A stretch of 64,000 nucleotides of DNA from Candidatus Hydrogenedens sp. (GTDB lineage: Bacteria > Hydrogenedentota > Hydrogenedentia > Hydrogenedentales > Hydrogenedentaceae). Every line of letters starts with the position of its first letter. Within the stretch, counting starts at the first letter, position 1. Positions 20,839 through 41,594 of this stretch are shown in pieces. The position numbers and the translations under genes are program-made. The notes under the pieces are model-generated. The model was given only the letters and a program-made list of their open reading frames with translations. It had not been told where the DNA came from and did not search any database. Where the stretch lies: contig JBMFRC010000001.1 in assembly GCA_049968235.1 (NCBI GenBank), positions 192,001 to 256,000 of the forward strand, written 5' to 3'.

Positions 20839-20873
20839 TGTCGGACCCGTCGGCTCGACGAACTCGTCAGACA
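20839..20873. repeat. intergenic stem-loop, copy A (8-bp stem TGTCGGAC/GTCAGACA with 19-nt loop containing CGTCGG...CGAAC)
   Basis: seen directly; lies between metF stop and next start; shares stem and loop words with copies at 28664 and 41555. Confidence 0.4.
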
Positions 20874-20891
20874 TAAAATAGGAAAAAAATT

Positions 20892-21920
20892 ATGGCATTT
20901 TTAGAGGTTGTAAAAAATTCTAAAAAAACATTATGTGCTCCTTTCGTTAGTTTCCCCGGTACTGTGTTCACGAATTCCACAGTAAAGGAAAATCTCAACA
21001 ATGGTAAATTACAGGCAACAAGCATCATCGCCCTTCAAAAAACTTGTAATTTTGATGTTATCTTTCCCATGATGGATTTGACTGTGGAAGCAGAAGCAAT
21101 GGGTGCCTGTATCAATTGGGAAATTGACGAACTCCCTGCTGTAACAGGGAAAACTGTCCTTGATACAAATGATGTAAAAAATCTACCAATCCCCGAAGTT
21201 GGAGAAGGAAATAGATTGGGCGTTTTTGTAGAGACATGTAAGGAATTAAGAAAAGAATTTTCGGACAAATGGGTATGGGGATATGTTCTTGGTCCCTTTT
21301 CTATTGCAGGTCGATTGATGGGAATGACAGAAATTTCCATTGCTATAAAACTGGAACCTGAACTTGTACATCAAATACTGGAAAAAGTAAACACATTAAT
21401 AGAAAAATATGCATCTGCACTACTTGCAATGGGAATCGATGGACTGGTAATACTGGAACCTGCATCGGGAATGCTGGACGAATATGACGCAAATGAATTT
21501 TCCAATAACTATATTAAGAGAACAGTAAACCTAATTAAAGACAAAGGGAAGATTCCCATTTTGCATAATTGTGGAAAAGTTCTTCATCTTGTTGAAAGTC
21601 TATGTGCCACAGGCATACAAGCGTTACATGTAGGTTCGGTAACAGAACCGTATGATATTTATCCACGCATTCCCGATGATATTGTGTTAATGGGAAATCT
21701 AAACCCGACAGAAATATTCTTGCAAGGAACGCCTGAGAAACTTAAAGATGCAACAATAACTTTGCTTAAACAGATGGCAGGATATAACCGATTTGTAATC
21801 TCCTCGGGATGTGATATTCCACCGGGGACACCTATAGAAAATTTAAAAGTATTTAAAGAAGTAGTAGATTCAATAAAGCATTCTATGAACAATGATTCCC
21901 AAAAGGGAATATCTCTATGA
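20892..21920 (+). CDS. uroporphyrinogen-decarboxylase (URO-D) family protein, possibly corrinoid/other methyltransferase (MtaA/CmuA-like)
   Basis: 342 aa; URO-D/MtaA-like TIM-barrel sequence; stop overlaps next start (ATGA). Confidence 0.7.
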   Translation: MAFLEVVKNSKKTLCAPFVSFPGTVFTNSTVKENLNNGKLQATSIIALQKTCNFDVIFPMMDLTVEAEAMGACINWEIDELPAVTGKTVLDTNDVKNLPIPEVGEGNRLGVFVETCKELRKEFSDKWVWGYVLGPFSIAGRLMGMTEISIAIKLEPELVHQILEKVNTLIEKYASALLAMGIDGLVILEPASGMLDEYDANEFSNNYIKRTVNLIKDKGKIPILHNCGKVLHLVESLCATGIQALHVGSVTEPYDIYPRIPDDIVLMGNLNPTEIFLQGTPEKLKDATITLLKQMAGYNRFVISSGCDIPPGTPIENLKVFKEVVDSIKHSMNNDSQKGISL

Positions 21921-24475
21921 CACGCATCGGTGGGATAACAGTCGGTTTCCTATTCATTTTTATCCTCTTTCCTATTCTCTTATCCGCTCAAGTAGATGAA
22001 GCGGAAATGAAAGAGTGGATTGATGCTTCATCTTATAGAGACCTGGCTATTGTCATCCCCGAAAATGCTTCTCCCCTGCTTCTACACTCTGCAGAAATTT
22101 TCAAAAAATATTGGGAATCTTGCACACACCGTCCTATTGCAATCTCAACACTAAATCAAGGGGCTATTAATATCTGGTTAGGTGCGGAACTCTGCACTAA
22201 AGAATGGATTGACCCGGAAGAACTGGATAACCTCGGTGATGAAGGGTTTATTATACGGACCTATACACCCACACGGAAATATGCCCAAAAAGGTGTCGCA
22301 AAACAATTGCTCATTTGCGGGAAAACAGATATAGGAACTCTTCACGGAGTTTATACCTTTTTTGAACGTTATCTGAATGTTGCATGGTTATCCTCATCTT
22401 ACACGCATAAACCACCTTTAGGTTATCGGCTTAAAGAGATAGATTATAAATTTTCACCACATTTTGAATATCGCGTTTTTCTTTCTGACCTTCCGGAATT
22501 TAAGATGGAAGGCGATAGGAAAGAAGGACTCCATTTATCTCTTTTTACCCGAGAAGAAGATTTCATCCCTATACCTATTAACAAATATTTTAATACAGAA
22601 GAATACGCTCAAAATACAACAGAATTAAAAGCGAAGTCTCTTCTCCATAATCCGATATGTTTCTCTTCAGAAAAGATAAAACAGACCTTTATAAGTTTTA
22701 TAAAAAAACAAATGGAATTAAATCCCCAGCGGAAATTTTGGACGATTGAGGTTGGCGGCACAGAAATAAACTCCTGTCTATGCACAAACTGTCAGGAACA
22801 AATTAAATCTACAGAAACACCAGTAACTCCCTTATTAACAATGTTGAACGATGCAATTGAGATATTGGAAAAGATTTATCCGGAAAAAGAATTACAATTT
22901 TGCCTCTCCTTGAAAAATACTATGCGAAAAGCCCCACAGAATATACAGATCAATAAAAAACTGTTTATTGCCCTTTCGACAGATACCTGTGATATCGCCC
23001 GTACAATAGATGACCCTGTATCTCAACCCAATATATGCTTCCTTAATGATTTAAAAGGTTGGCGTAATCTTACACCTAATTTACTTATACGATATTATGT
23101 AGGAGCCAATTATTATTGTGGTTTATTTCATCAACCGGAGTTATTTAATTTCCAAAAAGACATTCAGACCTTTGACAGGTATCAGGTTCGTGGGATTATA
23201 ATTTGTACCCCTTCTCAGAAAATATTCCCATTTACTGAATTTGGTGAACTTAAATCATATATTTTAGCCCGCCTGATATGGGACCCCGACTTGATTATAG
23301 AAGAAGAGATAAATCGGTTTTTGAATTTATATTATGGTCCCGCAGGTGCTAAGTATGCAGAATTTTTCAATTATCAAAAAGACTTAATTAAGAAAAACAA
23401 TATCCGGTGTAATATTTACCAAAAAATCCCGTGGTGGAATGAAGAATATGCTTCCAATGCAGTAAAAATCATACAGCAAACGATAAACATGTCATATTTT
23501 GCTAAGGATATATACAATCATGTCTTACAAACTTCTATACCGCTCCATTATTCAGCCTTCATTTGTCCACCGAACATTGAGATTCAAAATGATAAATTTT
23601 TAGAAACACGTCCCGCTACAATTTCTGAAGAAGAGTTCTGGAAAAGTTTAGATAAAATAGAAACATTTTCAGCAAATGGTTCTTTCATACCGTATCGTGA
23701 AATTATCTCTAATATAAATTCTTTCAATCCGTTTCCTGAACGTTCCTCCTTATTCAAGAAATATGCCATGGAAAATAAACACTATACGTTATGGATTTTA
23801 CCGGAATATCAAGGAGCCATTATCCGCATGCAGGATAAAACATCAGGAATCGAATACCTACCGGCTTTTCAGAAAGGAATAAATCCTTATTTTGTCTGGA
23901 ATGAATATCAAGATATATCAGATACAGGTTATGGTCTTCCCTTTTCAGGGGATTACATTACAAAAGAGGTAGAGAGTAATAAAATTACTGTTGAAAGGGA
24001 AATTAGAAAAGGAGTCTTATTACAACGAAAAGTGACTATAGAAGATACCGGGGAAGTTATTTTGTACTATACTTGTGAAAATCGAAACTCTCAGGAAGAA
24101 AAAATTTCGTTTTATATTGTTCCACGATTTAGTTTAAGCAGTGATAATAAGGCGATAGAAATATGGACTAACCAAAATCCAAGATGGGGAAAAATACAAC
24201 AGATACTCATCTCATACCAGCCCTTTACCTATTCATTACAAGATATTCATCAAGAAAACGCATCAGGGGTAGGAATTCATTTTTGCGAGAAAGGAGTGTT
24301 CCTTCAACTAGAAGTGCAACAATTGTCCCCTGAAAACATTGACTTCTTGCTTGATTATTCTTACTACGATGGTTACATCGCTCCTATAATAAAGATTTAC
24401 CTACCCATAAAGTATCAACAAACCTATTCTTTTTCTCTTCATTGTAAAACTCAGAATACCAACACTTTTAAGTAA
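21917..24475 (+). CDS. large hypothetical secreted/anchored protein
   Basis: 852-aa ORF, N-terminal signal/anchor, Cys cluster CLCTNC; translationally coupled to upstream URO-D-like gene. Confidence 0.6.
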   Translation: MTRIGGITVGFLFIFILFPILLSAQVDEAEMKEWIDASSYRDLAIVIPENASPLLLHSAEIFKKYWESCTHRPIAISTLNQGAINIWLGAELCTKEWIDPEELDNLGDEGFIIRTYTPTRKYAQKGVAKQLLICGKTDIGTLHGVYTFFERYLNVAWLSSSYTHKPPLGYRLKEIDYKFSPHFEYRVFLSDLPEFKMEGDRKEGLHLSLFTREEDFIPIPINKYFNTEEYAQNTTELKAKSLLHNPICFSSEKIKQTFISFIKKQMELNPQRKFWTIEVGGTEINSCLCTNCQEQIKSTETPVTPLLTMLNDAIEILEKIYPEKELQFCLSLKNTMRKAPQNIQINKKLFIALSTDTCDIARTIDDPVSQPNICFLNDLKGWRNLTPNLLIRYYVGANYYCGLFHQPELFNFQKDIQTFDRYQVRGIIICTPSQKIFPFTEFGELKSYILARLIWDPDLIIEEEINRFLNLYYGPAGAKYAEFFNYQKDLIKKNNIRCNIYQKIPWWNEEYASNAVKIIQQTINMSYFAKDIYNHVLQTSIPLHYSAFICPPNIEIQNDKFLETRPATISEEEFWKSLDKIETFSANGSFIPYREIISNINSFNPFPERSSLFKKYAMENKHYTLWILPEYQGAIIRMQDKTSGIEYLPAFQKGINPYFVWNEYQDISDTGYGLPFSGDYITKEVESNKITVEREIRKGVLLQRKVTIEDTGEVILYYTCENRNSQEEKISFYIVPRFSLSSDNKAIEIWTNQNPRWGKIQQILISYQPFTYSLQDIHQENASGVGIHFCEKGVFLQLEVQQLSPENIDFLLDYSYYDGYIAPIIKIYLPIKYQQTYSFSLHCKTQNTNTFK

Positions 24476-24485
24476 AAAATAATTT

Positions 24486-25169
24486 TTACTTTTCTTTTCT
24501 GGTACCTCCGAATACAGCATATTTGTAGTATTTCCAAATAACATCTATATCTGTAAAACCTACTTCTTCGAGCCATTTAAGATGAGACATTAATTTTTCA
24601 GGATTGCCTCCTTTATGGTGTCTGCCCAACCATTTTTTATTTATTTCCTCATCAGAAATTGTTCGAGCCATAAAATCCTTCCAGTTTAACATATACAGTC
24701 CTTCAAGATATTCGTTAGACCCTATTACGACATCTGCATTGTAAAAAACACCTCCATCAGTCAAATTCTTAAATACTTTCTGATAAAATTGCTTTTTGTC
24801 TCTTCCTAAATGATGTAAAGATAAAGAGGAAAGGACAACATCGTATTTTTTGTCAAACTCAAATTGTGAAAAATCACATAGAATATATGAAATATCCCTA
24901 TAATCTGCCATCTTTGTCTTTGCCATGTTAATCATATTCTCTGCAAAATCGAGGCAAGTTATCTTTGCATTGGGAAATTTTTCTTTTACTTTTTTTGCTA
25001 TGGTCCCTGTTCCACAACCAACATCAATCACATGGACAGGCATATTCTTTTCATGCGGAATGGTTGACAGTAATGCTTCAATCATTTCCTCGTAATAGGG
25101 GATTAAATTTAAGACAATCTGGTCAAATTCTTTTGCTTCTTCTTCGAAATGTTCTTTCATTGTATCCAT
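24486..25169 (-). CDS. class I SAM-dependent methyltransferase
   Basis: 227 aa; VIDVGCGTG motif I, acidic motif II. Confidence 0.8.
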   Translation of the reverse strand: MDTMKEHFEEEAKEFDQIVLNLIPYYEEMIEALLSTIPHEKNMPVHVIDVGCGTGTIAKKVKEKFPNAKITCLDFAENMINMAKTKMADYRDISYILCDFSQFEFDKKYDVVLSSLSLHHLGRDKKQFYQKVFKNLTDGGVFYNADVVIGSNEYLEGLYMLNWKDFMARTISDEEINKKWLGRHHKGGNPEKLMSHLKWLEEVGFTDIDVIWKYYKYAVFGGTRKEK

Positions 25170-25407
25170 AAAGAATTTCCTTTACAGGTTTCTATTATTA
25201 AATGATTCTTACCCTATGGGAAACTTGTTTCCTCCTATTAGTTTTTATACGGGTCATGAATGATGGGTATTTTACCATTTGACCATATAAATTATAAACT
25301 TTTATTTGGTATTTGATTTGAAAGTAGTTATAATAGTATATGTTTTTGAAATGTAAATTTTATTGTATCTATCAATAACATTAACCACTAAATGAAGGGA
25401 GTGTTTT

Positions 25408-26577
25408 ATGGCTAAAAAGACTGTAAATGTAGCAATGGTCGGTGGTGCGTTCATGGGTAAAACACATAGCAACGCATGGCGTAAAGTAGCGATGTTTTTT
25501 GACCCACCTGTAAATCCTGTGATGAAAGTGATGTGCGACAAGGACCCCAATGCATTGAAGAATGCGGAACGGTATGGCTGGCAGGAGACCTCGGACAATT
25601 GGGAAGAGGTGGTGAATCGCCCGGATATTGATGTTATTGATATTTGTACACCGAATTTCCTCCATCCTCCGATTGCTATTGCAGCGGCTAAGGCAGGTAA
25701 AGCAATTGTTTGCGAAAAGCCATTAGCCAATACATTAGCAGAAGCAAAGCAAATGTGGGATGCAGTGAAAAAAGCCGGTGTTCGCAATATGTGTGGTTTT
25801 TCCTATCGTTTCGCTCCAGCAGTGCAAACAATTAAACAACTGGTCTCAAAAGGACAATTGGGTGATATTTTCCATTTTCGTGCTGCATATCAACAGGACT
25901 GGATTGTTGACCCTGATTTTCCAATGGTATGGCGTTTGAAGAAAAAACATACCGGTTCGGGTGCGTTAGGAGACATTGGTGCACACATTACTGATTTGTG
26001 TCATTTTCTTGTAGGACAGGTATGTGAAGTTGCAGGAACGATGGAAACCTTTATAAAGAAACGCGTTGTGCCAGAAAGTGATGTGGGAGCATGGGGAGCT
26101 AAAGGTGGTAAAGGGAAAAAGGTCTATGACACTGTTGATGTTGATGATGCAGCAGTATATGTAGCAAGAATCCAGGGGAAAAACACATTGGCAACTTTTG
26201 AAGCAACGCGTTTTGCTCCGGGCAGAAGAAATTACAATAGCATTGAAATTTATGGAAGTAAAGGTTCCGTATTATGGAATCAGGAAGAAATGAACGAATT
26301 TCATTATTTCAATCGTAGTGACCCACCCACCTTACAGGGCTTTCGTAAAGTTCAAGCCTGTGATATGGGTCATCCTTATGTGCATGCATGGTGGCCACCG
26401 GGTCATATTATTGGTTATGAACATCTTTTCGTTCATGAAATTTATGAATTTCTGTGTAGTTTAGCCAGTAAGAAGATAAATTATCCCACATTTGAAGATG
26501 CGGTAAAATGTCAGGCAGTGTTGGATGCCGTGGAACGTGCTTCTGCTTCGAAAAAATGGGAAAAGGTCATAATTTAA
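25408..26577 (+). CDS. Gfo/Idh/MocA-family NAD(P)-dependent oxidoreductase
   Basis: 389 aa; N-terminal Rossmann VAMVGGAFMGKTH, EKP motif, C-terminal alpha/beta domain. Confidence 0.85.
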   Translation: MAKKTVNVAMVGGAFMGKTHSNAWRKVAMFFDPPVNPVMKVMCDKDPNALKNAERYGWQETSDNWEEVVNRPDIDVIDICTPNFLHPPIAIAAAKAGKAIVCEKPLANTLAEAKQMWDAVKKAGVRNMCGFSYRFAPAVQTIKQLVSKGQLGDIFHFRAAYQQDWIVDPDFPMVWRLKKKHTGSGALGDIGAHITDLCHFLVGQVCEVAGTMETFIKKRVVPESDVGAWGAKGGKGKKVYDTVDVDDAAVYVARIQGKNTLATFEATRFAPGRRNYNSIEIYGSKGSVLWNQEEMNEFHYFNRSDPPTLQGFRKVQACDMGHPYVHAWWPPGHIIGYEHLFVHEIYEFLCSLASKKINYPTFEDAVKCQAVLDAVERASASKKWEKVII

Positions 26578-26616
26578 GGTTTGGAAATAAAAACTTTAAT
26601 AAAAGGAGAATGAAAT

Positions 26617-27579: not shown

Positions 27580-27583
27580 AACT

Positions 27584-27620
27584 TTTTTGGAATAGGGAGA
27601 GTCTAATGTAGGCTCTCCCT
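27584..27620 (+). terminator. candidate intrinsic terminator hairpin (GGGAGAG / CTCTCCC) followed by T-rich tract
   Basis: 7-bp perfect inverted repeat with 10-nt loop directly after the 26617..27579 stop. Confidence 0.35.
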
Positions 27621-27656
27621 TAACACTTTTTAAACTCTTTTTAAGGAGGATTCTCC

Positions 27657-28655
27657 ATGGCTATCCAGGTAGGTATTGTAGGACTGGGAATGATGGGTAA
27701 AGTGCATTTTGATACCTATAACAAATTAAAGGGTGTCAAAGTGGTGGCAGTGTGTGATGCCGATGAAAAGAAACGAAAAGGGAATATAGGTCCGTTTGGT
27801 ACTCTTGACCTGAGTAAGGTAAAAGTCTATTCCCGAGTAGAAGAAATTCTCAATGACCCTCAGGTGGATGTATTAGATATTACATTACCCACACCTGCTC
27901 ATGCTCCGATTACAATACAGGCATTTCAAGCAGGGAAACATGTCATATGTGAGAAGCCCATGGCTCGAACCTCCGCCGAAGCACTGGAGATGATAAAATC
28001 GGCAAAGAAATACAAAAAACATTTATATATCGCACATTGCATTCGATTCTGGCCCTCTTATATCATTGCAAAAGAAATGGTTGAAAGCGGGAAATATGGC
28101 AAAGTACGTACCGCAAAGTTCAGTCGCATTAGTCCACTTCCCGGTTGGAGTTGGCAAAATTGGCTTCAATCCGCACAACATTCCGGCAGATGTGCTCTTG
28201 ACCTTCATATTCACGATGCGGACTTTGTCCGCTATTTATTTGGGAAACCCCGGACCGTTCAAAGTTTAGGAGTAAGTCTCGCACTAGGAGGTATTGACCA
28301 TATTATTACCAGTTATAATTATCCAGACCGCCATTGGGTCGTTGCAGAAGGAGCATGGGAATATAGCACTACCTATCCTTTCTCAATGACTTTTACTATT
28401 GCGATGGAACAGGGAACTTTAGAGATGTCTCGCGATTTATCGCTGACTTATTACCCCAATCGAGGCAAACCCAAGCAGATTAAAGTTCTCAAAGGAGATG
28501 GCTACGAAGGGGAATTAAGACATTTTCTTGAATGTTTACAAAAAGACCGTGATTCGGATATTATTCCCTCAGAAGAAGCGTATAAAACACTACTTCTAAT
28601 TGAAGCAGAGATTGAATCGGTTAAAACACAAAAACCCGTGTCCGTTCGTGGATAA
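27657..28655 (+). CDS. Gfo/Idh/MocA-family oxidoreductase (second copy)
   Basis: 332 aa; VGIVGLGMMGKVH Rossmann motif, EKP. Confidence 0.85.
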   Translation: MAIQVGIVGLGMMGKVHFDTYNKLKGVKVVAVCDADEKKRKGNIGPFGTLDLSKVKVYSRVEEILNDPQVDVLDITLPTPAHAPITIQAFQAGKHVICEKPMARTSAEALEMIKSAKKYKKHLYIAHCIRFWPSYIIAKEMVESGKYGKVRTAKFSRISPLPGWSWQNWLQSAQHSGRCALDLHIHDADFVRYLFGKPRTVQSLGVSLALGGIDHIITSYNYPDRHWVVAEGAWEYSTTYPFSMTFTIAMEQGTLEMSRDLSLTYYPNRGKPKQIKVLKGDGYEGELRHFLECLQKDRDSDIIPSEEAYKTLLLIEAEIESVKTQKPVSVRG

Positions 28656-28663
28656 AATTTAAG

Positions 28664-28699
28664 GGCTGGACTCGTCAGTCTTATCGAACCTGTCCAGCC
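28664..28699. repeat. intergenic stem-loop, copy C (GGCTGGAC / GTCCAGCC, 20-nt loop tcgtcagtcttatcgaacct)
   Basis: perfect 8-bp inverted repeat 22 nt upstream of recD2 start; loop shares CGTCAG and CGAAC words with copy A. Confidence 0.4.
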
Positions 28700-28721
28700 T
28701 AAAAGTTTAACAAAGTTTACC

Positions 28722-30932
28722 TTGATGGACCCTTATTCACTGGAAATTCCATTTACACCAAAAGAGTTCGGACCCGAAGAAATAGAGGGACTTATTGAAC
28801 AAATCGTTTATGAACATGCATCCAGTGGTTTTTTTGTTGCCCGTTTACGACGCAAGGACACAAATCATTTAATCACTATCGTCGGTAAATCTCTTCCTAT
28901 ATCTCAGGGAACAACAGTTCGCATTTCAGGGCATTGGATTAACCACCCTCGTTTTGGTCCACAATTTCAAACCCAAAACATGGAATTAATACAACCTTCA
29001 TCTGTGGAAACCATTACCCAATTTCTTGCTTCCGGTGCTATACCCGGTGTGGGATGTGGATATGCTGAACGGATAATAAAAACATTCGGAGCGGATACCC
29101 TCCATGTGTTAAATCATGAGCCGGAACGACTTGCCCTTGTTCGAGGCTTAGGGAAAAAGAGGGCACAAAAAATTCACGAAGTATGGAAAGAAAAGCAAGA
29201 ATTCATGGAAATGCTGATTACTTTACAGCAATATAATATCCCTATAGGGCTGGCAACAAAACTATATAAGCATTATGGAAATCAAACTTTAACTTATCTA
29301 AGAGAAGACCCTTATCAGATAGCATCAGAAATTCAGGGTATCGGATTTAAAACAGCAGACCGTATCGCAAAAGAATTAGGAATTAATCCAGAACATCCCA
29401 GCCGTATAGAAGCAGGGATTCGCTACACTCTTCATGATGCGGAAAATGATGGACACATTTTCTTACCCTATGATGAACTCATTCAATTAACTGCAGAACT
29501 ATTATCTCTGGACGAATCTCAGATTACCCCCATATTAAAGGAAATGATCGATGCTAATAAATTATGCATGGAAAATAACAACGTTTATCTCCCTTTCCCA
29601 TATTTCATCGAAAATGAGTGTGCCAAACATTTGAAGCGGTTATATTACTCACCTGGTAGTTTGCCCCCTAACTTGCCAGTAAAACAGTTCTTTTCTACTC
29701 CGCATAAAGAACTACCCGAACTAAGTATGGAGCAAAAGGAAGCCATACAAAAAATTTTTTCCTCTAAAATCACAATCATCACAGGCGGTCCGGGTACCGG
29801 AAAAACAACCTTAATAAAAACGCTTGTATATTTTCTGAGAGATTATCCTGTGCGTGTCGTTTTATCCGCACCAACAGGGCGTGCCGGTAGACAAATGGAA
29901 GCAGTTACAGGACATCCTGCGAGTACTATACACCGATTACTCGAATTTAATCCTCAAACGGCAAAACCCGGTCGGGACGAAATGAATCCAATTCCATGCG
30001 ATTTGTTGATTTTAGATGAATGTTCTATGATTGACCAGACCTTACTTTGGTATCTTCTTTGTGCGGTCCCATCTACTTCACATATCGTTTTCATTGGTGA
30101 TGTGGACCAACTTCCTTCCGTAGGACCGGGCAATGTCCTATTCGACCTGATAGCCAGTCAGGTATTTCCTGTTATCCGACTAAAAACCATATACCGTCAA
30201 TCCGCTCAAAGCGGTATTATTGTCAATGCACACCGAATTAATCAGGGTTTCTTTCCTGAATTCAATCAGAAAGATTTCTTCTTTATCCGTCGTGGAGATA
30301 GTCAATCCGCATTACAAACTCTTTTACACATTGTTCAGGAACGCATCCCACAACGATTCGGATATAATCCGGTGAAAGATATCCAAGTCCTTGCTCCTCT
30401 GCGTCGTGGAGATGGAGGTGTTCACCATTTAAACTATCGTTTACAGGAAGCACTTAATCCCAAAGGAAAACCGATACCGAATACCTCATTCCGTATTGGG
30501 GATAAAGTTATGCAGATAAAAAATAACTATGAGAAAGATGTTTTTAATGGAGATGTAGGTATTATCACAGCGGTAGATAATGAACAGGGCTATATTACCA
30601 TTACTTTTGAACCTGACCGTCCTGTTCTATATACCTACGAACAATTAGACCAGATTAGCCTTGCTTACTCGGCTACGGTGCACAAATCTCAAGGGAGCGA
30701 ATATCCCGTGGTTGTTCTCCTTTTACTACCCCAACATTATTTACTCCTACAACGTAATGTCCTTTATACTGCGGTCACACGGGCAAAAAAAATAGTAACG
30801 ATTATTGGTTCTCCTAATGCTATTCAAAAAGCAATAAAATCGACACAATCCATCCGTAGAAACACCATGCTTGCAGAACGAATTCGTAACATTTTTCATT
30901 TTAACATAAAAATACAAAATAGTATAGAATAA
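28722..30932 (+). CDS. recD2: RecD2-type SF1 DNA helicase (RecD-like)
   Basis: 736 aa; HhH region, GGPGTGKTT Walker A, LILDECSM Walker B, C-terminal SH3-like domain. Confidence 0.85.
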   Translation: MMDPYSLEIPFTPKEFGPEEIEGLIEQIVYEHASSGFFVARLRRKDTNHLITIVGKSLPISQGTTVRISGHWINHPRFGPQFQTQNMELIQPSSVETITQFLASGAIPGVGCGYAERIIKTFGADTLHVLNHEPERLALVRGLGKKRAQKIHEVWKEKQEFMEMLITLQQYNIPIGLATKLYKHYGNQTLTYLREDPYQIASEIQGIGFKTADRIAKELGINPEHPSRIEAGIRYTLHDAENDGHIFLPYDELIQLTAELLSLDESQITPILKEMIDANKLCMENNNVYLPFPYFIENECAKHLKRLYYSPGSLPPNLPVKQFFSTPHKELPELSMEQKEAIQKIFSSKITIITGGPGTGKTTLIKTLVYFLRDYPVRVVLSAPTGRAGRQMEAVTGHPASTIHRLLEFNPQTAKPGRDEMNPIPCDLLILDECSMIDQTLLWYLLCAVPSTSHIVFIGDVDQLPSVGPGNVLFDLIASQVFPVIRLKTIYRQSAQSGIIVNAHRINQGFFPEFNQKDFFFIRRGDSQSALQTLLHIVQERIPQRFGYNPVKDIQVLAPLRRGDGGVHHLNYRLQEALNPKGKPIPNTSFRIGDKVMQIKNNYEKDVFNGDVGIITAVDNEQGYITITFEPDRPVLYTYEQLDQISLAYSATVHKSQGSEYPVVVLLLLPQHYLLLQRNVLYTAVTRAKKIVTIIGSPNAIQKAIKSTQSIRRNTMLAERIRNIFHFNIKIQNSIE

Positions 30933-30982
30933 TGATACGGTAATAAGAATTTTTAGAATAGAAAACAAATAGGTTTATTGAT

Positions 30983-32814: not shown

Positions 32815-32865
32815 TTGACGAGTTAGATAAAATTGTGTTAATTTTGTTAAAAAAATTGTATAATG
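32815..32865 (+). promoter_or_regulatory. putative sigma70-type promoter for 32939 gene (TTGACG ... extended -10 TGTATAAT)
   Basis: hexamers read directly in 650-bp AT-rich spacer; spacing imperfect. Confidence 0.25.
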
Positions 32866-32938
32866 CTTATTATAGGATGAAGTAGCGTATATAATTATAT
32901 AATATAGTGTATTATTACAAATAACCGTGTAATATGGA

Positions 32939-34639: not shown

Positions 34640-34655
34640 TTTTTAAATATATAGG

Positions 34656-35399: not shown

Positions 35400-35402
35400 A
35401 GA

Positions 35403-36233
35403 TTAACTCTTACTTCTTTTAACAATCATAGGTTCCGTAAAGAGAATATCTTCATTTAAAAATTCATGGGTAAGCCAGAACATAAGCAAGGTAGTATGAA
35501 TATTCACCCCATCAGATGGGATTCCTGTCCCTGAAAAAGCACCATCATCTCTCTGGAAAGAAAGTAGATGATATATTTCCTCAGGGTTGATGATTTTTTT
35601 CTTACCAAGGTAGCAAATAAATGCCAGTGCTTCAATTTTTAAATCAGAAGGGAATGAAATTGAAAGAGTTATCGAATAAATTTGATGTATTACTTCATTT
35701 ATCAATTGTTGCACATCATTATCACTGGTAGATAAACATTCCTGCTCGATGAACCAGGATAATGCCAGTGCAGAATGTGTAGTTTTATATCCTCCCTGTT
35801 TGGATTGCTCTTTGATTTGTCGGATTAATGTTATTTTATCTGGGCAGTCCTCCCGTCTGTCAATAAAAAGGGCTTTTAATTCGAGCCAGATATAACTCTC
35901 CGCCTGGTTTGGCTTCTTCCAATGAATACCTGTGTAATTTATTAGTCTTCCGTATATTTCCAGAGATTTTATATCCTGTGAAGTGGGAATCCGAACAAAC
36001 GACCTATTGAAAGAAAATTCGTCGGGTAGATTAAATCGGCGTTGTAAATAATCTAATAGAATCAGGTCTTCAACTCTAAAATAGAGTTTGTTTTTTCGGA
36101 TATAATCCAGTATTTTATTTCGTGTTTTTTCCAATTCCTGTTTTTGTAACGATTTGCTTCCTGGAAATGCTAAAGAAAGAAAAGGAGTAATAAGGAATAA
36201 CAATAGTAAAATGAAAGCAAAAACTTTTTTCAT
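35403..36233 (-). CDS. hypothetical secreted protein
   Basis: 276 aa with signal peptide; last gene of rbs-like operon; no motif recognised. Confidence 0.45.
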   Translation of the reverse strand: MKKVFAFILLLLFLITPFLSLAFPGSKSLQKQELEKTRNKILDYIRKNKLYFRVEDLILLDYLQRRFNLPDEFSFNRSFVRIPTSQDIKSLEIYGRLINYTGIHWKKPNQAESYIWLELKALFIDRREDCPDKITLIRQIKEQSKQGGYKTTHSALALSWFIEQECLSTSDNDVQQLINEVIHQIYSITLSISFPSDLKIEALAFICYLGKKKIINPEEIYHLLSFQRDDGAFSGTGIPSDGVNIHTTLLMFWLTHEFLNEDILFTEPMIVKRSKS

Positions 36234-37228
36234 GATTCTTGCTGTTCTTTTAAGTTCCCTTGTAATTTATCTACCAGCACCGCAGATAGAATAACAAGTC
36301 CTAATGTTATCTGTTGTCCAAAGGTCTCAATACCAATCCAGTTAAGACCACTGTTTAATGTGAAGACGACACACAATCCTAATAAAGTCCCCCACAATGA
36401 GCCTTTTCCTCCACTCAAACTTGTCCCTCCAATTACGACACTGGCGATAACGGCTAATTCATCGCCGATACCTACTTTAGGGCTTCCAGAACCCATACGT
36501 GATGCAAGTATTACACCCGCCAGAGCAGAAAAGGTACTACACAATATATAAACAAATAATTTTATCCGTTTGATAGGGACACCACTTAATCGGGCTGATT
36601 CTTCATTCCCTCCAATAGCAAGTGTGTGTCTTCCGGCAGAGGTATAATGTAAAACAATAAGCCCCGATAAAAATATGAGTCCAAAGATAACAATACTTAC
36701 AGGAATAAAATGAAAACATATCCCTCGCCCTATAACTAAAAACTCTTCAGGCACAGGACTTATAGGTTTGCCATTTGTAATAATGTTTGCCAGACCTCGC
36801 AATAGACTCATAAACGCAAGTGTTACAATGAAAGGTGGAATATCCCATAGAGTTATAATGCTTCCCATAATAATACCGAATAAAAGTCCTATCATAACTC
36901 CGGCAAGGAAAGACAAGGGTACGAAATATCCCGAAATGGAAGCAAGATAAACAGATAACATAGCCGATACAACCCCTGCCATGGCTCCGATGGAACCAAT
37001 GGATAAATCAATTCCCCCGGACATAATGACAAAAGTCATTCCTACCGCCATAATTCCAAAAATGGAAAGTTGATTTAAAATAAGGATGATAGTAGAAAGG
37101 GAAGCAAAGCCGGGCTGTCCTTGATTTCTGCCTATAATTTCAAAAATAAAAAATTCAAGAATTAAAGTAATCGTTAAAGGAACCCAGGAACGATAGAAAA
37201 GTGTCTTGATACTCTGATTAAGCCACAT
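36230..37228 (-). CDS. rbsC: sugar (ribose-type) ABC transporter permease
   Basis: RbsC/BPD-type permease sequence; start set at ATG 37228 (MWLNQSIK), 11-nt overlap with ATPase gene. Confidence 0.82.
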   Translation of the reverse strand: MWLNQSIKTLFYRSWVPLTITLILEFFIFEIIGRNQGQPGFASLSTIILILNQLSIFGIMAVGMTFVIMSGGIDLSIGSIGAMAGVVSAMLSVYLASISGYFVPLSFLAGVMIGLLFGIIMGSIITLWDIPPFIVTLAFMSLLRGLANIITNGKPISPVPEEFLVIGRGICFHFIPVSIVIFGLIFLSGLIVLHYTSAGRHTLAIGGNEESARLSGVPIKRIKLFVYILCSTFSALAGVILASRMGSGSPKVGIGDELAVIASVVIGGTSLSGGKGSLWGTLLGLCVVFTLNSGLNWIGIETFGQQITLGLVILSAVLVDKLQGNLKEQQES

Positions 37229-38726
37229 TCTGTTTTTTATATCCTGTGGCAAACTGCATAATTTTTTCCTGAGTGGCTTCATTACGAGATAATTCACCGA
37301 CAAGGTGTCCTTCATGCATAACAAGAATACGGTCACACATACCTAAGACCTCCGGCAACTCACTGGAAATCATAAGGATTGCGACCCCTTCTTCCAGAAG
37401 TCGGTTCATAAGTTTGAATATTTCCGATTTTGCACCCACATCAATTCCGCGTGTCGGTTCATCAAAAATTAAAATTCGAGATTGAGTAAAGAGCCATTTT
37501 GCAAGAACCACCTTTTGTTGATTTCCACCACTCAAATTCTGTGCAATTTGTTCGATAGATGGAGTTCGTATTTGTAGGTCATGCACATATTTTTCGGCTA
37601 CCTCCCGTTCTTTTGCAAGATTGAGGAAAATTCCCCTTGTAATTTCTTTTAAGTTTGCCAGGGTTGTATTTTCGCGAATGGTCATACCTAAAACCAGTCC
37701 TTGATTTTTTCGGTCTTCCGTAAGTAGTCCAATACCATTTTTAATGGCTTCCTGCGGGGAACGGATTTTTACTTCCTGTCCATCAATAAAAATTTTGCCG
37801 GCATCAATAGGGTCCGCACCAAATATAGCACGTGCTACTTCTGTTCTACCGGCTCCAACCAGACCTGTAAGACCTACAATTTCCCCGCAATATACGGAGA
37901 AATTAATATCAAAAAAAGCACCTTTACGGGTAAATCCTTCCACTCGTAATCGTTCCTTACCACGAGGAAGAAATATTTTGGGATATTCATCTGTAAGTTC
38001 ACGACCAACCATCATTTTAATAACATCTTCACGACTTACATCGCAAACATTATGGGTTCCTACATACTGACCGTCCCGCATCACTGTAACACGGTTCCCT
38101 ATTTCATAAAGTTCTTCAAGCCGATGTGAAATATAGATAATTCCGATATCCTGCCGTCTTAATACTTTGATAAGTTCAAACAAAGTCTTTAATTCATGGT
38201 CTGTCAAAGTTGCCGAAGGTTCATCCATTACTATTATTTTTGCCTTTATGCTCAAAGCCTTAGCAATCTCTACCATTTGTTGTTGAGCAATACTCAATTC
38301 CGCCACGGGAAGTCGTACATCCAATTTTAATCCAACACGCTCTAATACTTCCTGTGCCCCTGCATACATCTGTTGCCAATTAATAAACGGTGTTTTAGGA
38401 ATACGCGGTTCTCTACCCAGGAAGATATTTTCCGCAACGCTTAAATAGGGAATAAGATTAAATTCCTGATATATCATGCTAATTCCCAATTGCTGGGCAT
38501 GGTAGGGAGAGGTAATTTGTATTGGTTGCCCTTCGAGAAAAATTTGCCCCGAATCCATAGCAACCGCACCTGCTAATATTTTCATGAGTGTTGATTTCCC
38601 GGCTCCATTTTCTCCTACAAGACAATGAACTTCTCCATAACGAACCTCTAATTGCACCTTATCTAATGCCAGGACACCCGGGAACCGTTTCGTTATATCT
38701 CGCATTTCAAGTAATACATCACTCAT
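37218..38726 (-). CDS. rbsA: sugar ABC transporter ATP-binding protein, duplicated ABC domains
   Basis: 502 aa; two Walker A (GENGAGKST; GLVGAGRTE), two LSGG signatures. Confidence 0.9.
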   Translation of the reverse strand: MSDVLLEMRDITKRFPGVLALDKVQLEVRYGEVHCLVGENGAGKSTLMKILAGAVAMDSGQIFLEGQPIQITSPYHAQQLGISMIYQEFNLIPYLSVAENIFLGREPRIPKTPFINWQQMYAGAQEVLERVGLKLDVRLPVAELSIAQQQMVEIAKALSIKAKIIVMDEPSATLTDHELKTLFELIKVLRRQDIGIIYISHRLEELYEIGNRVTVMRDGQYVGTHNVCDVSREDVIKMMVGRELTDEYPKIFLPRGKERLRVEGFTRKGAFFDINFSVYCGEIVGLTGLVGAGRTEVARAIFGADPIDAGKIFIDGQEVKIRSPQEAIKNGIGLLTEDRKNQGLVLGMTIRENTTLANLKEITRGIFLNLAKEREVAEKYVHDLQIRTPSIEQIAQNLSGGNQQKVVLAKWLFTQSRILIFDEPTRGIDVGAKSEIFKLMNRLLEEGVAILMISSELPEVLGMCDRILVMHEGHLVGELSRNEATQEKIMQFATGYKKQNVA

Positions 38727-39729
38727 TTTTTTGCCCTTCTAATAATGTTTCACGGGTAATTAATTTTACAGGGATATATTTTACAGAGGGAATATTTTTC
38801 CCCTGAAAAAACTCTGCAATAGTTTCACTTGCTGTTTTACCTATTTCTCTGGGAAACTGGGCAATGTCAGCAATCAATGCTTTACCCTCACTTATTGCTT
38901 TACATGCTTCCGGTGTTGCATCAAATCCGACAATTTTAATCTTCTCCTGTAATCCAGCAGATTCTACTGCAGCCAGAGCACCTAAAGCGGAATCATCGTT
39001 AATTCCAAAGATAGCATCTAAATCAGAGCGGGAAGCAATTAAATCCTGAGCAGAACGCATGGCTTTATCTCGTTGCCCTTCTCCCGGCACTTTTTGAACT
39101 ATACGAATTCCGGGATATTTCCCAATCGCATCTTCAAAACCTTTAACCCGTTCCTGAACAGAAGTAACCATAGGATGGTCAATAATAGCAACTTTTCCCT
39201 GTCCTTTTAATTCCTCTGCCAGGAATTCTCCTAATAAACTCCCTCCCTGATAATTGTCTGATGCTATATGACAAATTACATCGGTGTCCTTAACAGCAAT
39301 ATCTACAGTGAACACAGGGATTTTTTTTTCCATAGCCTGTTTTATAATTGGAGCCATTCCACTGGAATCAGTAGGGGCTACTACCAGTGCCTGAACCCCC
39401 TGGAGAATGAACATTTCTATCTGGTCATTTTGTTTGCGTGGGTCAAATTCTGCATATTGAATTTTTACCTGGATATTCTTTTGTTCCGCAGTCTCTTTCA
39501 TTGCCCCTGCCAGGTCTTGATAAAAAACATGTGTCTGGGTCAATAAAGAAGCACCTACAACTATCCGATTTGTTATTTCCGCTCCTGTTGTTTCTTTCTT
39601 TCCCGAACAAGAAATGATTAAAATAAATAGAAAAATGGCTATTAAACTTGAATAGAAATGTTTTAATTTTAAAATACACATACCTCTAAATTTTCCTTTT
39701 TTACATATCACCATTTTAATATACATCAA
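38719..39729 (-). CDS. rbsB: sugar ABC transporter periplasmic substrate-binding lipoprotein
   Basis: 336 aa; lipobox (IISCSG), periplasmic binding protein type I fold; start may be Met ~39681. Confidence 0.8.
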   Translation of the reverse strand: MMYIKMVICKKGKFRGMCILKLKHFYSSLIAIFLFILIISCSGKKETTGAEITNRIVVGASLLTQTHVFYQDLAGAMKETAEQKNIQVKIQYAEFDPRKQNDQIEMFILQGVQALVVAPTDSSGMAPIIKQAMEKKIPVFTVDIAVKDTDVICHIASDNYQGGSLLGEFLAEELKGQGKVAIIDHPMVTSVQERVKGFEDAIGKYPGIRIVQKVPGEGQRDKAMRSAQDLIASRSDLDAIFGINDDSALGALAAVESAGLQEKIKIVGFDATPEACKAISEGKALIADIAQFPREIGKTASETIAEFFQGKNIPSVKYIPVKLITRETLLEGQKNE

Positions 39730-39762
39730 AACAATTAATCCAATCAGTTGCGAATTAAAATC

Positions 39763-41490
39763 TTATTTGTCGTATCCAGTAGTATACCAGCGATTATATA
39801 AAAAGGGTAGAGAAAACACTTCTTTCTTTATAGGTAGATTGTCAATAATAGACGCTCCTTCTCCATTCCAGTCCACATTGATTCCGTCAAACCATGCCCC
39901 ACTAAACGAGCCTTCTTCATTCCCACACCAAACCCCCAACATGATTAACATAGTATTGGGAGACAGAGATTGAAAAGTCATACCGGGCGATAAGGAATGG
40001 ACAAGTTCGGGTATATTAAGTGTTATATGATGGGAACGATAACCATAATCGGGCAACATCATAGTGATAAATTTTCCTTCTTCTCTGTATTTTTCTAAAT
40101 ATTGAGGTTTTGCAGGTATTCCATCATGATACGCCCAAATTTTTGGGATATGTTTAACCCGCTCTTCGCGTGCTCCCCAATGGCCTACCCACATCCAGCA
40201 GAAATTTCTATCTTTAAACAAAGCAACTCGTATAAACCCACCTCCCAAAAAACTTTTCTCACTGTTCGGAATGTAATATCGTATTTTAACAACGGGACTT
40301 GCACTGCTATCGGGTATTTGCAAAACCTGATAAGCGTCGATACTTTCATCATATTGCCATGCATGCCCTTTGAATCGGGTAAATAAGTGCAGGGATTGCT
40401 CCCCCGGTAATAAGCCGCATTTTCGTATTTCGTGTATAAACCCCGGTTCCTGTTCTGATGTATAGCGTATAGGAAATAACCAGTCGGTTAAACCTCGTTC
40501 AAAATCACCATTTTTAATTTCCTTATACGATGGCATCTCGCTCCAGTGCAGAAATGAACGGGGGTCCATATCTTTCGTAAATATCGGGAAATGGGAAGGA
40601 TATTCATGCTTTGCATCAACTTCTAATTGCCGACCTACCAATTTCATATCAGAACCGTTAAGAACCGCTTCCACAAAATATCCCCGGTCTTTCTGCGTAT
40701 TAAACTCCGGATACTCTTCGCCAAAGGCTCTTCCGGGAACTAATGTGGGCAGAACAACAAATTTTGTCCCTTGATATTCCCATGCTGTCCGAACAGATGC
40801 TTTAATACCGTTATGAACATGCCCCATAAACACATATTGAACATTACCATATCGCACTATTGTGTCTAATAATTTGTTTTTTCTGTCCTTAGGATAAGTG
40901 TAATACTCTAACTGGGACAGTCCTACGGGTAATAAATGATAATGTAAAAATACCATTACAGGACTTCGCCATACTTCATGAAGTTCGTTATCCAACCATG
41001 CTATCTGTTCATCAAAATTATTGTTTTCCAATAAATCAGGTGTGGATAGAACGACAATTCGCCATGCACCACAGTTAAAGGCATAATTAGGCAAACGGAA
41101 CCCACATAACCGTTCTTGCATGGATAAAAACAATCCATCGTCATATTTCCCGTCATGATTCCCATGCACTAATGCCATAGGTATTTTTAGAGGTCGAACT
41201 GCATTTTCAAATGCTGAAAAATAATCGGGACGGGGAAAAGCAACAAGGTCACCATTAAAAACAATCAAATCTACCTGTTCCTGATTTGCTGTATTTACCA
41301 TCTTCTGCAGTGTTTGTTCCAATTCCCGTTCAAATCCAACAGGACTATCAGCAGGACCTATTTGTGGGTCTGCGATAAGAAAAATGCGGAGATTTTCTGT
41401 TTTCCCAGCAAGAGAAGCATAGTAATCTATCATGGGTTTGTTTGCACCATCCTGAGCCAATAAAATAAAGTAAAAAAAAATAGAAAGCAT
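39763..41490 (-). CDS. secreted calcineurin-like metallophosphoesterase with C-terminal beta domain
   Basis: 575 aa; signal peptide, GDLV..GNHD..GHVH motifs. Confidence 0.72.
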   Translation of the reverse strand: MLSIFFYFILLAQDGANKPMIDYYASLAGKTENLRIFLIADPQIGPADSPVGFERELEQTLQKMVNTANQEQVDLIVFNGDLVAFPRPDYFSAFENAVRPLKIPMALVHGNHDGKYDDGLFLSMQERLCGFRLPNYAFNCGAWRIVVLSTPDLLENNNFDEQIAWLDNELHEVWRSPVMVFLHYHLLPVGLSQLEYYTYPKDRKNKLLDTIVRYGNVQYVFMGHVHNGIKASVRTAWEYQGTKFVVLPTLVPGRAFGEEYPEFNTQKDRGYFVEAVLNGSDMKLVGRQLEVDAKHEYPSHFPIFTKDMDPRSFLHWSEMPSYKEIKNGDFERGLTDWLFPIRYTSEQEPGFIHEIRKCGLLPGEQSLHLFTRFKGHAWQYDESIDAYQVLQIPDSSASPVVKIRYYIPNSEKSFLGGGFIRVALFKDRNFCWMWVGHWGAREERVKHIPKIWAYHDGIPAKPQYLEKYREEGKFITMMLPDYGYRSHHITLNIPELVHSLSPGMTFQSLSPNTMLIMLGVWCGNEEGSFSGAWFDGINVDWNGEGASIIDNLPIKKEVFSLPFLYNRWYTTGYDK

Positions 41491-41554
41491 AACACCTCCT
41501 GATATGTATCCTTTTTATGATTATACGAATTTATCTTTGACTGGACAACATGAA

Positions 41555-41594
41555 TGTCCGACGGGTCTGACTGAACCAACTTGTCGGAGCGACA
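41555..41594. repeat. intergenic stem-loop, copy B (TGTCCGAC ... GTCGGAgcgACA, 20-nt loop gggtctgactgaaccaactt)
   Basis: 5' arm differs by one base from copy A; loop shares GTCtGAC and GAACC words; in divergent promoter region. Confidence 0.35.

What the first reader, a model, noticed from the sequence alone, without database searches (positions are those of the whole stretch)
20839..41594. Small family of conserved intergenic stem-loops (8-bp GC stem, ~20-nt loop) at three loci
Three intergenic sites share an unusual architecture. Copy A (20839..20873) is TGTCGGAC-N19-GTCAGACA. Copy B (41555..41594) is TGTCCGAC-N20-GTCGGAgcgACA. Copy C (28664..28699) is GGCTGGAC-N20-GTCCAGCC. The loops are not random: A ccgtcggctcgacgaactc, C tcgtcagtcttatcgaacct and B gggtctgactgaaccaactt all contain a (C)GTCnG word followed about 8 nt later by yGAAC. 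A and C sit 18 to 22 nt upstream of the next start codon; B lies in a divergent promoter region. A 20-nt loop is atypical for intrinsic terminators, and none has an adjacent U-tract. This suggests a dispersed REP-like element, a conserved protein-binding site, or a small cis-regulatory RNA.
Basis: seen in the sequence. Interest (0 to 1): 0.55.

Follow-up and report, generated by a model that had tools for sequence, protein, structure and literature searches.

The report
Dispersed 9-bp GTCNGAC repeat arrays
The three "stem-loops" are short arrays of a 9-base repeat with the palindromic core GTCNGAC, a non-coding repeat family kept at the same gene boundaries in related Hydrogenedens genomes and matching no described family I could search, though its function is still unknown.

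Summary
The stem-loop reading is a side effect. Each site is 3-4 head-to-tail 9-nt units, GTCNGAC plus two free bases. The "stem" is unit 1 pairing with unit 4. The "loop words" are units 2 and 3. A fourth copy lies at 10131-10155.

The window comes from a Candidatus Hydrogenedens MAG. In related genomes the same three gene boundaries carry such arrays with about 1 to 6 units. They stay in strict 9-nt register, the six core bases are kept, and the three N positions are free. The hairpin is not conserved: RNAalifold finds no consensus structure, only copies C and B fold better than shuffles, and permuting the N bases does not weaken folding. Rfam has no match and there is no U-tract.

Arrays with the same core and variable N also occur outside long ORFs, mainly in PVC and Bacteroidota genomes, mostly downstream of genes.

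My best reading is a REP-like dispersed repeat whose core is read as double-stranded DNA by a symmetric factor. That mechanism is inferred, not shown. Rivals are 3'-end RNA hairpins and a selfish or neutral minisatellite.

The parts
20840..20872 (.). Array A, 4 units: GTCGGAC cc GTCGGCT cg (-)ACGAAC tc GTCAGAC. The third unit is 8 nt. It lies between the MTHFR (metF-like) stop at 20834 and the URO-D-family start at 20892.
   Evidence: Sequence, genes, periodic scans. Orthologous arrays of 2-5 units.
28665..28698 (.). Array C, 4 units: GCTGGAC tc GTCAGTC tt ATCGAAC ct GTCCAGC. Units 1 and 4 form the perfect 8-bp stem. It lies between the GFO/IDH/MocA oxidoreductase stop at 28655 and the recD2 start at 28722.
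   Evidence: Sequence, genes, fold z -3.5, scans. Orthologous arrays of 3-6 units.
41556..41589 (.). Array B, 4 units: GTCCGAC gg GTCTGAC tg AACCAAC tt GTCGGAG. It lies in the 178-nt divergent region between the metallophosphoesterase gene (start 41490, - strand) and the DJ-1/PfpI gene (start 41669, + strand).
   Evidence: Sequence, genes, scans. Orthologous arrays in L134 (3 units) and L133 (1-2 units).
10131..10155 (.). It lies in the 57-nt gap between a 1066-aa TIG-domain gene (10172-13372, -) and recG (8045-10114, -).
   Evidence: Sequence, ORFs, genes. Scans and (score 16.6 against a 95% shuffle maximum of 13.2).
41520..41548 (-). Context for array B: promoter-like TTGTCC-17-TATAAT for the metallophosphoesterase gene. 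Its -35 box lies 7 nt from the end of array B. The -10 region is conserved in L133 and L134.
41623..41652 (+). Context for array B: promoter-like TTAATA-18-TATAAT for the DJ-1 gene. Array B lies upstream of both predicted -35 boxes.

Best explanation
What it is (shown). Each site is a short, degenerate tandem array of a 9-bp unit. The unit is a 7-bp palindromic core G-T-C-N-G-A-C followed by two unconstrained bases. The window, from a Candidatus Hydrogenedens MAG, holds four arrays of 3-4 units, all intergenic. The arrays are old residents of particular gene boundaries. Related species carry them at the same three boundaries, and they gain or lose whole 9-bp units.

How it most likely works (inferred). 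The six core bases are held against the genome's A+T mutation pressure, while the three N positions sit at or near background composition. Nothing selects for pairing at the N positions, orientation does not matter, and one array lies in a probably untranscribed promoter gap. Together this points to the core being read as double-stranded DNA by a two-fold symmetric (dimeric) protein. Such a protein would bind side by side every 9 bp, as MetJ does on tandem met boxes or the omega repressor does on heptad arrays. It would build a short nucleoprotein block at gene ends and boundaries. Whether that block acts as a boundary or roadblock, a global operator or a nucleoid anchor is not known. The hairpins are by-products, though some lineages have co-opted them (L141 has a terminator-like 15-bp stem plus T-tract).
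For: Identity of the element:
- Strict 9-nt register in the window and in relatives.
- Unbiased autocorrelation peaks at lag 9 (z 9.0) and lag 18 (z 5.6) in the relatives' whole spacers, and at lag 9 (z 4.4) in the window's.
- The relatives-only matrix ranks B, C and D above the 95% shuffle maximum; A scores above the median only.

Persistence at orthologous sites:
- A-site: 2, 2, 2, 5, 2, 5 and 4 units in seven lineages.
- C-site: 4, 6, 3, 5, 6 and 4 units.
- B-site: 3 and 1-2 units.
- L128 and L136 differ by exactly 18 nt.

Constraint on the core only:
- In 59 units from relatives, positions 1, 2, 3, 5, 6 and 7 carry 1.2-1.6 bits. Positions 4, 8 and 9 carry 0.05-0.17 bits. Positions 8-9 have 39-42% G+C, close to the genome's 37%, and position 4 has 59%.
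- The 39-nt A-site spacer is identical in three genomes that are only 89-91% identical overall.
- In 261 kb of low-G+C Hydrogenedens DNA, GTCNGAC occurs 9 times in 226 kb of coding sequence (16-20 expected) and 26 times in 34 kb of non-coding sequence.

Against a pairing-driven element:
- No consensus structure.
- Folding is better than shuffles only for some copies.
- Permuting the N bases does not weaken folding: mean z +0.22 over 50 non-coding arrays.
- No orientation bias relative to transcription: 8 against 7.
- Array B lies between two predicted -35 boxes.

The core-plus-free-N pattern is specific to this core. The swapped control (GACNGTCNN)x3 gives 65 loci, 91% of them perfect copies. 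The target gives at least 120 loci, and 74% (genomes) or 39% (viral contigs) have differing N bases.
Against: - No binding protein has been identified. No protein family recurs next to the arrays; the best is 5 of 120 loci.
- Three-base half-sites are short for a specific DNA-binding protein.
- Units were delimited by eye, so the per-position profile is partly circular. The autocorrelation test is not.
- C compared with L128 shows two compensatory pair changes in the stem. L141 has turned its array into a terminator-like hairpin. So pairing matters in at least some copies.
- Across genomes the arrays sit mostly downstream of genes: 16 co-directional, 12 convergent and 2 divergent. That pattern equally fits an RNA 3'-end role or mere tolerance.
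- Coding-region depletion is only about two-fold.
- Only 64 kb of this genome was available.
Confidence: 0.4

Rival explanations
1. REP-like RNA element. The arrays are transcribed at the 3' ends of genes or between cistrons. Pairing between their self-complementary units gives hairpins that protect upstream mRNA from 3' exonucleases, or that pause or terminate transcription.
For: - A, C and D start 5-16 nt after a stop codon.
- Prevotella L035 arrays start 1-4 nt after stop codons inside an operon.
- 28 of 30 placed arrays are co-directional or convergent, and only 2 are divergent.
- C, B(+), the L001 array and L132 fold better than shuffles, with z from -2.2 to -4.1.
- C compared with L128 has two compensatory pair changes.
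- L141 has a 15-bp stem followed by a T-tract.
Against: - Any palindrome would serve this purpose, yet one specific core is kept.
- Two-unit orthologues and copy D have no hairpin. A is no better than shuffles.
- No consensus structure.
- N positions are not tuned for pairing.
- No U-tracts in the window.
- B is probably untranscribed.
Confidence: 0.2
2. Selfish or neutral minisatellite with no host function. The arrays persist by slippage, or they are footprints of a transposase that makes 9-bp target duplications at a symmetric hot spot. Tn10's NGCTNAGCN target has the same 3-N-3 form inside 9 bp. Units that keep a good core would be re-duplicated, and that alone would mimic conservation of the core.
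For: - Unit number changes in whole 9-bp steps between species.
- Nearly all core deviations are transitions toward A/T, as expected for decay.
- 26% of genome arrays are perfect copies, and some are about 30 units long.
- Because 9 is 3 codons, the same repeat survives inside ORFs as xSD or GPT tripeptide repeats.
- Many arrays lie at contig ends.
Against: - Plain slippage copies the N bases too and decays evenly across positions. The observed arrays have free N and a fixed core.
- No insertion sequence flanked by 9-bp GTCNGAC duplications was found in any fetched locus.
- Arrays are identical in contigs of the same species from different samples (99.8-100% identical contigs), so they are not hypervariable.
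- The A-site spacer is invariant across genomes 89-91% identical.
Confidence: 0.25
3. Small structured cis-regulatory RNA (riboswitch or leader) in the 5' UTR of the downstream gene.
For: All three original copies lie on the + strand upstream of + strand genes. They are G+C-rich islands in a genome of 37% G+C.
Against: - No Rfam match, even at E up to 10.
- The downstream genes are unrelated: a URO-D family protein, RecD2, DJ-1 and RecG.
- Structure and length are not conserved.
- Orthologues occur in either orientation type.
Confidence: 0.03

Closest known systems
REP / BIME elements, including the GTAG- and CGTC-tagged REP super-families (Di Nocera et al. 2013, PMC3733652)
   Same: Both are short, G+C-rich, self-complementary repeats scattered in intergenic DNA. 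Both lie mostly between co-directional and convergent genes and downstream of coding regions. Both are found in several phyla, including Planctomycetes. For CGTC REPs no dedicated transposase is known.
   Different: CGTC REPs are single hairpins with an 8-9 bp stem, a 4-5 nt loop, an unpaired terminal tetranucleotide tag (CGTC, or GTAG in the other super-family) and, for CGTC REPs, a CCA tail. The elements here are head-to-tail 9-bp units in variable number with no fixed stem or loop. No RAYT gene was seen.
Tandem operator arrays of ribbon-helix-helix repressors: MetJ met boxes (AGACGTCT repeated every 8 bp) and omega-repressor heptads (from my own knowledge)
   Same: Both are contiguous short repeats with no spacer, in variable number. 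In both, a dimer is thought to bind each unit and touch its neighbour. Met boxes are built from the same GAC and GTC triplets.
   Different: Those arrays are operators at a few promoters of one regulon or plasmid. These arrays are dispersed, lie mostly at gene 3' ends, have a 9-bp period and a different half-site arrangement. No cognate protein is known.
MIRU-type intercistronic minisatellites (VNTRs) of mycobacteria (from my own knowledge)
   Same: Both are tandem repeats filling the gaps between genes of an operon, and copy number differs between lineages.
   Different: MIRU units are 40-100 bp and carry small ORFs that couple translation. The unit here is 9 bp, a bridging ORF is not general (C has no start codon), and arrays are identical within a species.
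Tn10/IS10 insertion hot spot NGCTNAGCN with 9-bp target duplication (from my own knowledge)
   Same: Both have a 7-bp palindrome of 3-N-3 form inside a 9-bp unit.
   Different: That is a transposition target and is not known as a standing array. No element flanked by such duplications was found.

Membership tests
REP (repetitive extragenic palindrome), GTAG/CGTC-tagged | A single imperfect palindrome of 20-40 bp. For CGTC families the stem is 8-9 bp and the loop 4-5 nt. | tested here: not met
   The apparent loops are 19-20 nt and consist of two further repeat units. Orthologues have about 1 to 6 units and often no hairpin. The family definition is from PMC3733652.
REP (repetitive extragenic palindrome), GTAG/CGTC-tagged | An unpaired terminal GTAG or CGTC tag, plus a CCA tail for CGTC REPs. 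| tested here: not met
   CGTC occurs only as part of internal units (ccGTCGG, tcGTCAG). There is no terminal tag or CCA tail.
REP (repetitive extragenic palindrome), GTAG/CGTC-tagged | Extragenic position, mostly downstream of genes between co-directional or convergent ORFs. | tested here: met
   A, C and D lie between co-directional genes just after stop codons. Across genomes there are 16 co-directional, 12 convergent and 2 divergent placements.
REP (repetitive extragenic palindrome), GTAG/CGTC-tagged | High copy number per genome, and for GTAG REPs an associated RAYT transposase. | not testable with these tools
   Only 64 kb of this genome is held, with 4 copies. No neighbouring protein family recurs.
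Intrinsic (Rho-independent) terminator | A G+C-rich hairpin with a short loop, followed directly by a U-tract. | tested here: not met
   The scanner calls none at A, B or C. The exception is the orthologue in L141, which has a 15-bp stem, a 6-nt loop and TTTTTGTT.
Structured cis-regulatory RNA / riboswitch (any Rfam family) | A match to a covariance model. | tested here: not met
   No hit at the sites at gathering score or at E up to 10 around A. No hit on 16 loci with long arrays.
Structured cis-regulatory RNA / riboswitch (any Rfam family) | A secondary structure conserved among orthologues and supported by covariation. | tested here: not met
   RNAalifold on six C-site orthologues gives -2.24 kcal/mol with a covariation term of +0.22. 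Only the pair window C and L128 shows compensatory changes.
Tandem repeat / minisatellite (VNTR) | Head-to-tail units of constant period. | tested here: met
   Lag-9 autocorrelation gives z 9.0 in relatives and 4.4 in the window. L001 3245-3296 is a clean 6-unit array.
Tandem repeat / minisatellite (VNTR) | Copy number varies between lineages in whole units. | tested here: met
   About 1 to 6 units at the same sites. L128 and L136 differ by 18 nt. There is no variation within a species.
Tandem repeat / minisatellite (VNTR) | Units are copies of one another, so all positions are equally similar (a slippage product). | tested here: not met
   Core positions are conserved while N positions sit near background. 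74% of genome arrays differ at N between adjacent units, against 9% for the control pattern.
Operator array of a dimeric repressor (MetJ / omega type) | Contiguous short repeats, often symmetric, without spacers and in variable number. | tested here: met
Operator array of a dimeric repressor (MetJ / omega type) | A cognate DNA-binding protein, and a position at promoters of a regulon. | not testable with these tools
   No protein is known. Only B is at promoters. A, C and D lie between cistrons.
Integron attC site | RYYYAAC ... GTTRRRY core sites, with an integron integrase nearby. | tested here: not met
   The cores are GTC/GAC, not GTT/AAC. The flanking genes are syntenic housekeeping genes.

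The most novel reading that the evidence does not exclude
The GTCNGAC-NN arrays are the genomic footprint of an unrecognised, sequence-specific, two-fold symmetric DNA-binding factor. This could be a nucleoid-associated, boundary or roadblock protein shared by Hydrogenedentota, PVC and Bacteroidota. It would polymerise in 9-bp register at gene ends. That would make the arrays a new class of chromosomal landmark rather than a REP, a terminator or junk.
Probability: 0.25. Interest if true: 0.75.

Novelty: new variant of a known kind. Interest (0 to 1): 0.5.

Why it matters
Dispersed extragenic repeats are known mostly from Proteobacteria, as hairpin-type REPs. This one has a different build: phased 9-bp units with a fixed palindromic core and free N positions. 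It occurs in poorly studied phyla (Hydrogenedentota, PVC, Bacteroidota). It is held at the same gene boundaries across species and shows position-specific constraint.

If a factor reads these arrays, it would point to a shared, undescribed piece of chromosome or transcript organisation in these groups. The arrays would then serve as a ready-made bait sequence to fish for that factor.

There are also practical consequences. These arrays can masquerade as stem-loops, terminators or small RNAs in motif screens. The same repeat also appears inside ORFs as xSD or GPT tripeptide repeats.

Tried and rejected
- Rfam at gathering score on the window, at E up to 10 around A, and on 16 array-rich loci. 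The only matches were a ZTP riboswitch elsewhere, tRNAs and an L13-Bacteroidia ribosomal-protein leader.
- Riboswitch or leader idea: the downstream genes are unrelated.
- Protein-based scan of genome contigs with the URO-D protein: no relatives found. Exact-protein look-ups for the window's own genome found nothing.
- CGTC-tagged REPs (PMC3733652): the architecture is different.
- Integron attC: wrong core sites.
- LexA/SOS box was considered because D and C precede recG and recD2. There is no GAAC-N4-GTTC or similar motif.
- Bridging small ORFs as in MIRUs: present in A and in the L130 A-site, but absent from C.
- DRT10 reverse-transcriptase 9-nt cDNA repeats: an unrelated mechanism, and no RT is nearby.
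- Transposon target-duplication footprints: no element flanked by 9-bp GTCNGAC repeats.
- A shared neighbouring gene: none.
- BLAST of an array against plasmids: no match, though this may be due to the low-complexity filter.
- Literature searches for the repeat sequence or for 9-bp repeats in these phyla: nothing relevant. GTCNGAC appears in three papers, on E. coli LldR, E. coli fatty-acid degradation and a Pseudomonas fluorescens biocontrol strain; I did not open them.
- The raw excess of (GTCNGACNN)x3 across genomes is not evidence in itself. 58 of 131 arrays lie in long ORFs (xSD or GPT repeats), and a swapped control pattern is also common. Only the free-N, non-coding subset is informative.
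Full report
**Observation**

- A, 20839-20873: TGTCGGAC-N19-GTCAGACA. The stem has one G.A mismatch.
- C, 28664-28699: GGCTGGAC-N20-GTCCAGCC. This is a perfect 8-bp stem.
- B, 41555-41594: TGTCCGAC-N20-GTCGGAgcgACA.

The window has 37% G+C, so these are G+C-rich islands. A lies between an MTHFR gene and a URO-D-family gene. C lies between a GFO/IDH/MocA oxidoreductase gene and recD2. B lies between divergent metallophosphoesterase and DJ-1 genes. None is terminator-like, and Rfam has nothing at them.

**What the similarity really is**

GTCNGAC occurs four times in the window, all inside A and B. Written in 9-nt register the copies read as follows.
- A: GTCGGACcc GTCGGCTcg -ACGAACtc GTCAGAC
- C: GCTGGACtc GTCAGTCtt ATCGAACct GTCCAGC
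- B: GTCCGACgg GTCTGACtg AACCAACtt GTCGGAG

A periodic scan finds a fourth intergenic copy, D (10131-10155: GGCAGACag GTTAGATaa ATTGGAC), between a TIG-domain gene and recG. A two-unit pattern with up to 2 mismatches gives 4 hits against 0.56 expected. Autocorrelation of the four spacers peaks at lag 9 with z 4.4.

**Source and relatives**

The URO-D-family protein is 100% identical to one from a Candidatus Hydrogenedens sp. MAG. I fetched syntenic contigs from relatives whose URO-D homologues are 73-85% identical to the window's. All three orthologous boundaries carry the same kind of array, with different numbers of units.

| Site | Units in relatives |
|---|---|
| A-site | L128 2, L129/L136/L137 2, L005 2, L130 5, L132 2, L141 5, L001 4 (L001 has a different upstream gene) |
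| C-site | L128 4, L136 6, L005 3, L130 5, L132 6, L141 4 |
| B-site | L134 3, L133 1-2 |

L001 also has a clean six-unit array between convergent genes. In the relatives' whole spacers, without trimming, lag-9 autocorrelation gives z 9.0 and lag 18 gives z 5.6. A weight matrix built only from relatives ranks B, C and D above the 95% shuffle maximum in the window; A, with its 8-nt unit, scores above the median only.

**Constraint**

I compiled 59 units from relatives.
- Position 1 is G in 47 and A in 10.
- Position 2 is T in 58.
- Position 3 is C in 48 and T in 11.
- Position 5 is G in 47 and A in 11.
- Position 6 is A in 54.
- Position 7 is C in 44 and T in 11.
- Positions 4, 8 and 9 carry almost no information. 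Positions 8-9 have 39-42% G+C and position 4 has 59%.

The core is therefore kept while the N positions have relaxed to or near background. Plain slippage followed by even decay would not give that pattern. The units were delimited by eye, so this profile is partly circular; the autocorrelation test is not.

Other evidence points the same way.
- Three genomes that are 89-91% identical overall share an identical 39-nt A-site spacer.
- In 261 kb of low-G+C Hydrogenedens DNA, the heptamer occurs 9 times in 226 kb of coding sequence (16-20 expected) and 26 times in 34 kb of non-coding sequence.
- Arrays are unchanged in contigs of one species from different samples, so they are not hypervariable.

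**Is the hairpin the point?**

Mostly not.
- Only C (z -3.5) and B on the + strand (z -2.2) fold better than shuffles. A (z -0.5), D and the two-unit orthologues do not.
- RNAalifold on six C-site orthologues gives -2.2 kcal/mol with a positive covariation term.
- I took 50 non-coding arrays from many genomes, kept the cores and permuted the N bases. Folding was unchanged, with mean z +0.22. Pairing at N is therefore not selected.
- Array type (purine or pyrimidine centre) on the sense strand is random, 8 against 7.
- B lies between the -35 boxes of two predicted divergent promoters, so it is probably not transcribed.

There is counter-evidence. C compared with L128 shows two compensatory pair changes, and L141 has remodelled its array into a 15-bp stem plus T-tract. 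Hairpins are sometimes used.

**Wider distribution**

This needs care.
- 58 of 131 arrays lie in long ORFs as xSD or GPT tripeptide repeats. All Actinobacteria hits are of this kind.
- A swapped control, (GACNGTCNN)x3, is also common in viral contigs, with 65 loci.

The difference is qualitative. 91% of control arrays are perfect copies, whereas 74% of genome target arrays and 39% of viral target arrays differ at N between adjacent units. Non-coding, free-N arrays come mainly from PVC (21) and Bacteroidota (20). There are a few from Hydrogenedentota, Armatimonadota and others, and none from the single Pseudomonadota and Firmicutes loci among the 120 fetched.

In Prevotella L035, arrays fill intercistronic gaps and start 1-4 nt after stop codons. 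Of 30 arrays with both flanks called, 16 are co-directional, 12 convergent and 2 divergent. No neighbouring protein family recurs, no Rfam family covers them, and no insertion sequence flanked by 9-bp duplications of the motif was found. Whether the arrays in other phyla are homologous to the Hydrogenedens ones or convergent is open.

**Interpretation**

Shown:
- a dispersed family of 9-bp phased GTCNGAC arrays at gene boundaries;
- persistence at the same positions across species;
- change by whole units;
- constraint on the core only.

Inferred (about 0.4): the core is read as double-stranded DNA by a symmetric dimer binding every 9 bp, by analogy with MetJ met boxes and omega heptads (from my own knowledge).

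Rivals:
- 3'-end RNA hairpins of the REP type, about 0.2;
- a selfish or neutral minisatellite, possibly transposase target footprints like Tn10's NGCTNAGCN, about 0.25;
- a structured cis-regulatory RNA, about 0.03.

**Comparison with known families**

The nearest family is REP elements. The position rule is shared. CGTC REPs, however, are single hairpins with 8-9 bp stems, 4-5 nt loops and a CCA tail (PMC3733652), and those features fail here. I found no description of this repeat in the searchable literature.

**Verdict**

This is a real and non-random feature, but it was mis-described as a stem-loop. I class it as a new variant of dispersed extragenic repeats with unknown function and give it moderate interest.

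Noticed in passing
window 47713-47800 (-): A full-length ZMP/ZTP riboswitch (RF01750, 64.6 bits) lies directly upstream of a glycine-cleavage T-protein (aminomethyltransferase) gene at 46554-47639 (-). This is a one-carbon context consistent with known ZTP regulons.
   Followed up: partly
window 10131-10155 and 28665-28698: Two of the four arrays sit immediately upstream of DNA helicase genes: recG (8045-10114, -) and recD2 (28722-30932, +). This is probably coincidence, and no SOS-box-like motif was seen.
   Followed up: partly
window 20834-20881: A 15-codon ORF (MIVGPVGSTNSSDIK) starts at an ATG that overlaps the MTHFR stop (TAATG) and runs through array A. The L130 A-site has a 21-codon ORF ending in TGATG on the URO-D start. 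The feature is not general, because array C has no start codon.
   Followed up: partly
L001-L004, 13644-16079 and 20427-21023: This Hydrogenedens lineage has a HinfI-type restriction-modification pair inserted after the DUF4838 gene. It also has an Mrr-family nuclease gene where recD2 lies in the window. Synteny upstream of URO-D breaks at the array.
   Followed up: no
L015 7662-7903, L036 58-91, L077 745-1550 (Lentisphaerae MAG SIG83): A multi-copy ORF family appears to begin with M/L-(SDK/SDR)n, encoded by the same 9-nt repeat. The flanks are conserved between copies, and several copies lie 170-350 bp apart.
   Followed up: no
L098 2720-2835 and L030 1062-1127 (Prevotella ihumii): An eight-unit array (four purine-centred units followed by four pyrimidine-centred units) is flanked by 23-nt perfect inverted repeats (aacccaaatctgtcgttagccca / tgggctaacgacagatttgggtt). 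A similar left flank recurs at a second locus. It may be a larger palindromic mobile element.
   Followed up: no
L141 18897-19037: The C-site orthologue is a 4-unit array remodelled into a 15-bp stem with a 6-nt loop followed by TTTTTGTT and a TATAAT box. It looks like a terminator followed by a promoter.
   Followed up: partly
L195 (viral contig IMGVR_UViG_3300031949_000778), 704-1047 and 5569-6020: A 6.7-kb, 68% G+C viral contig carries six arrays of 4-5 units near both ends. Whether they are coding or non-coding was not resolved.
   Followed up: no
L129, L136, L137 (A-site spacer): The 39-nt MTHFR/URO-D spacer is 100% identical in three genomes that are only 89-91% identical overall. This indicates strong constraint on the spacer, which includes the ribosome-binding site.
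   Followed up: partly
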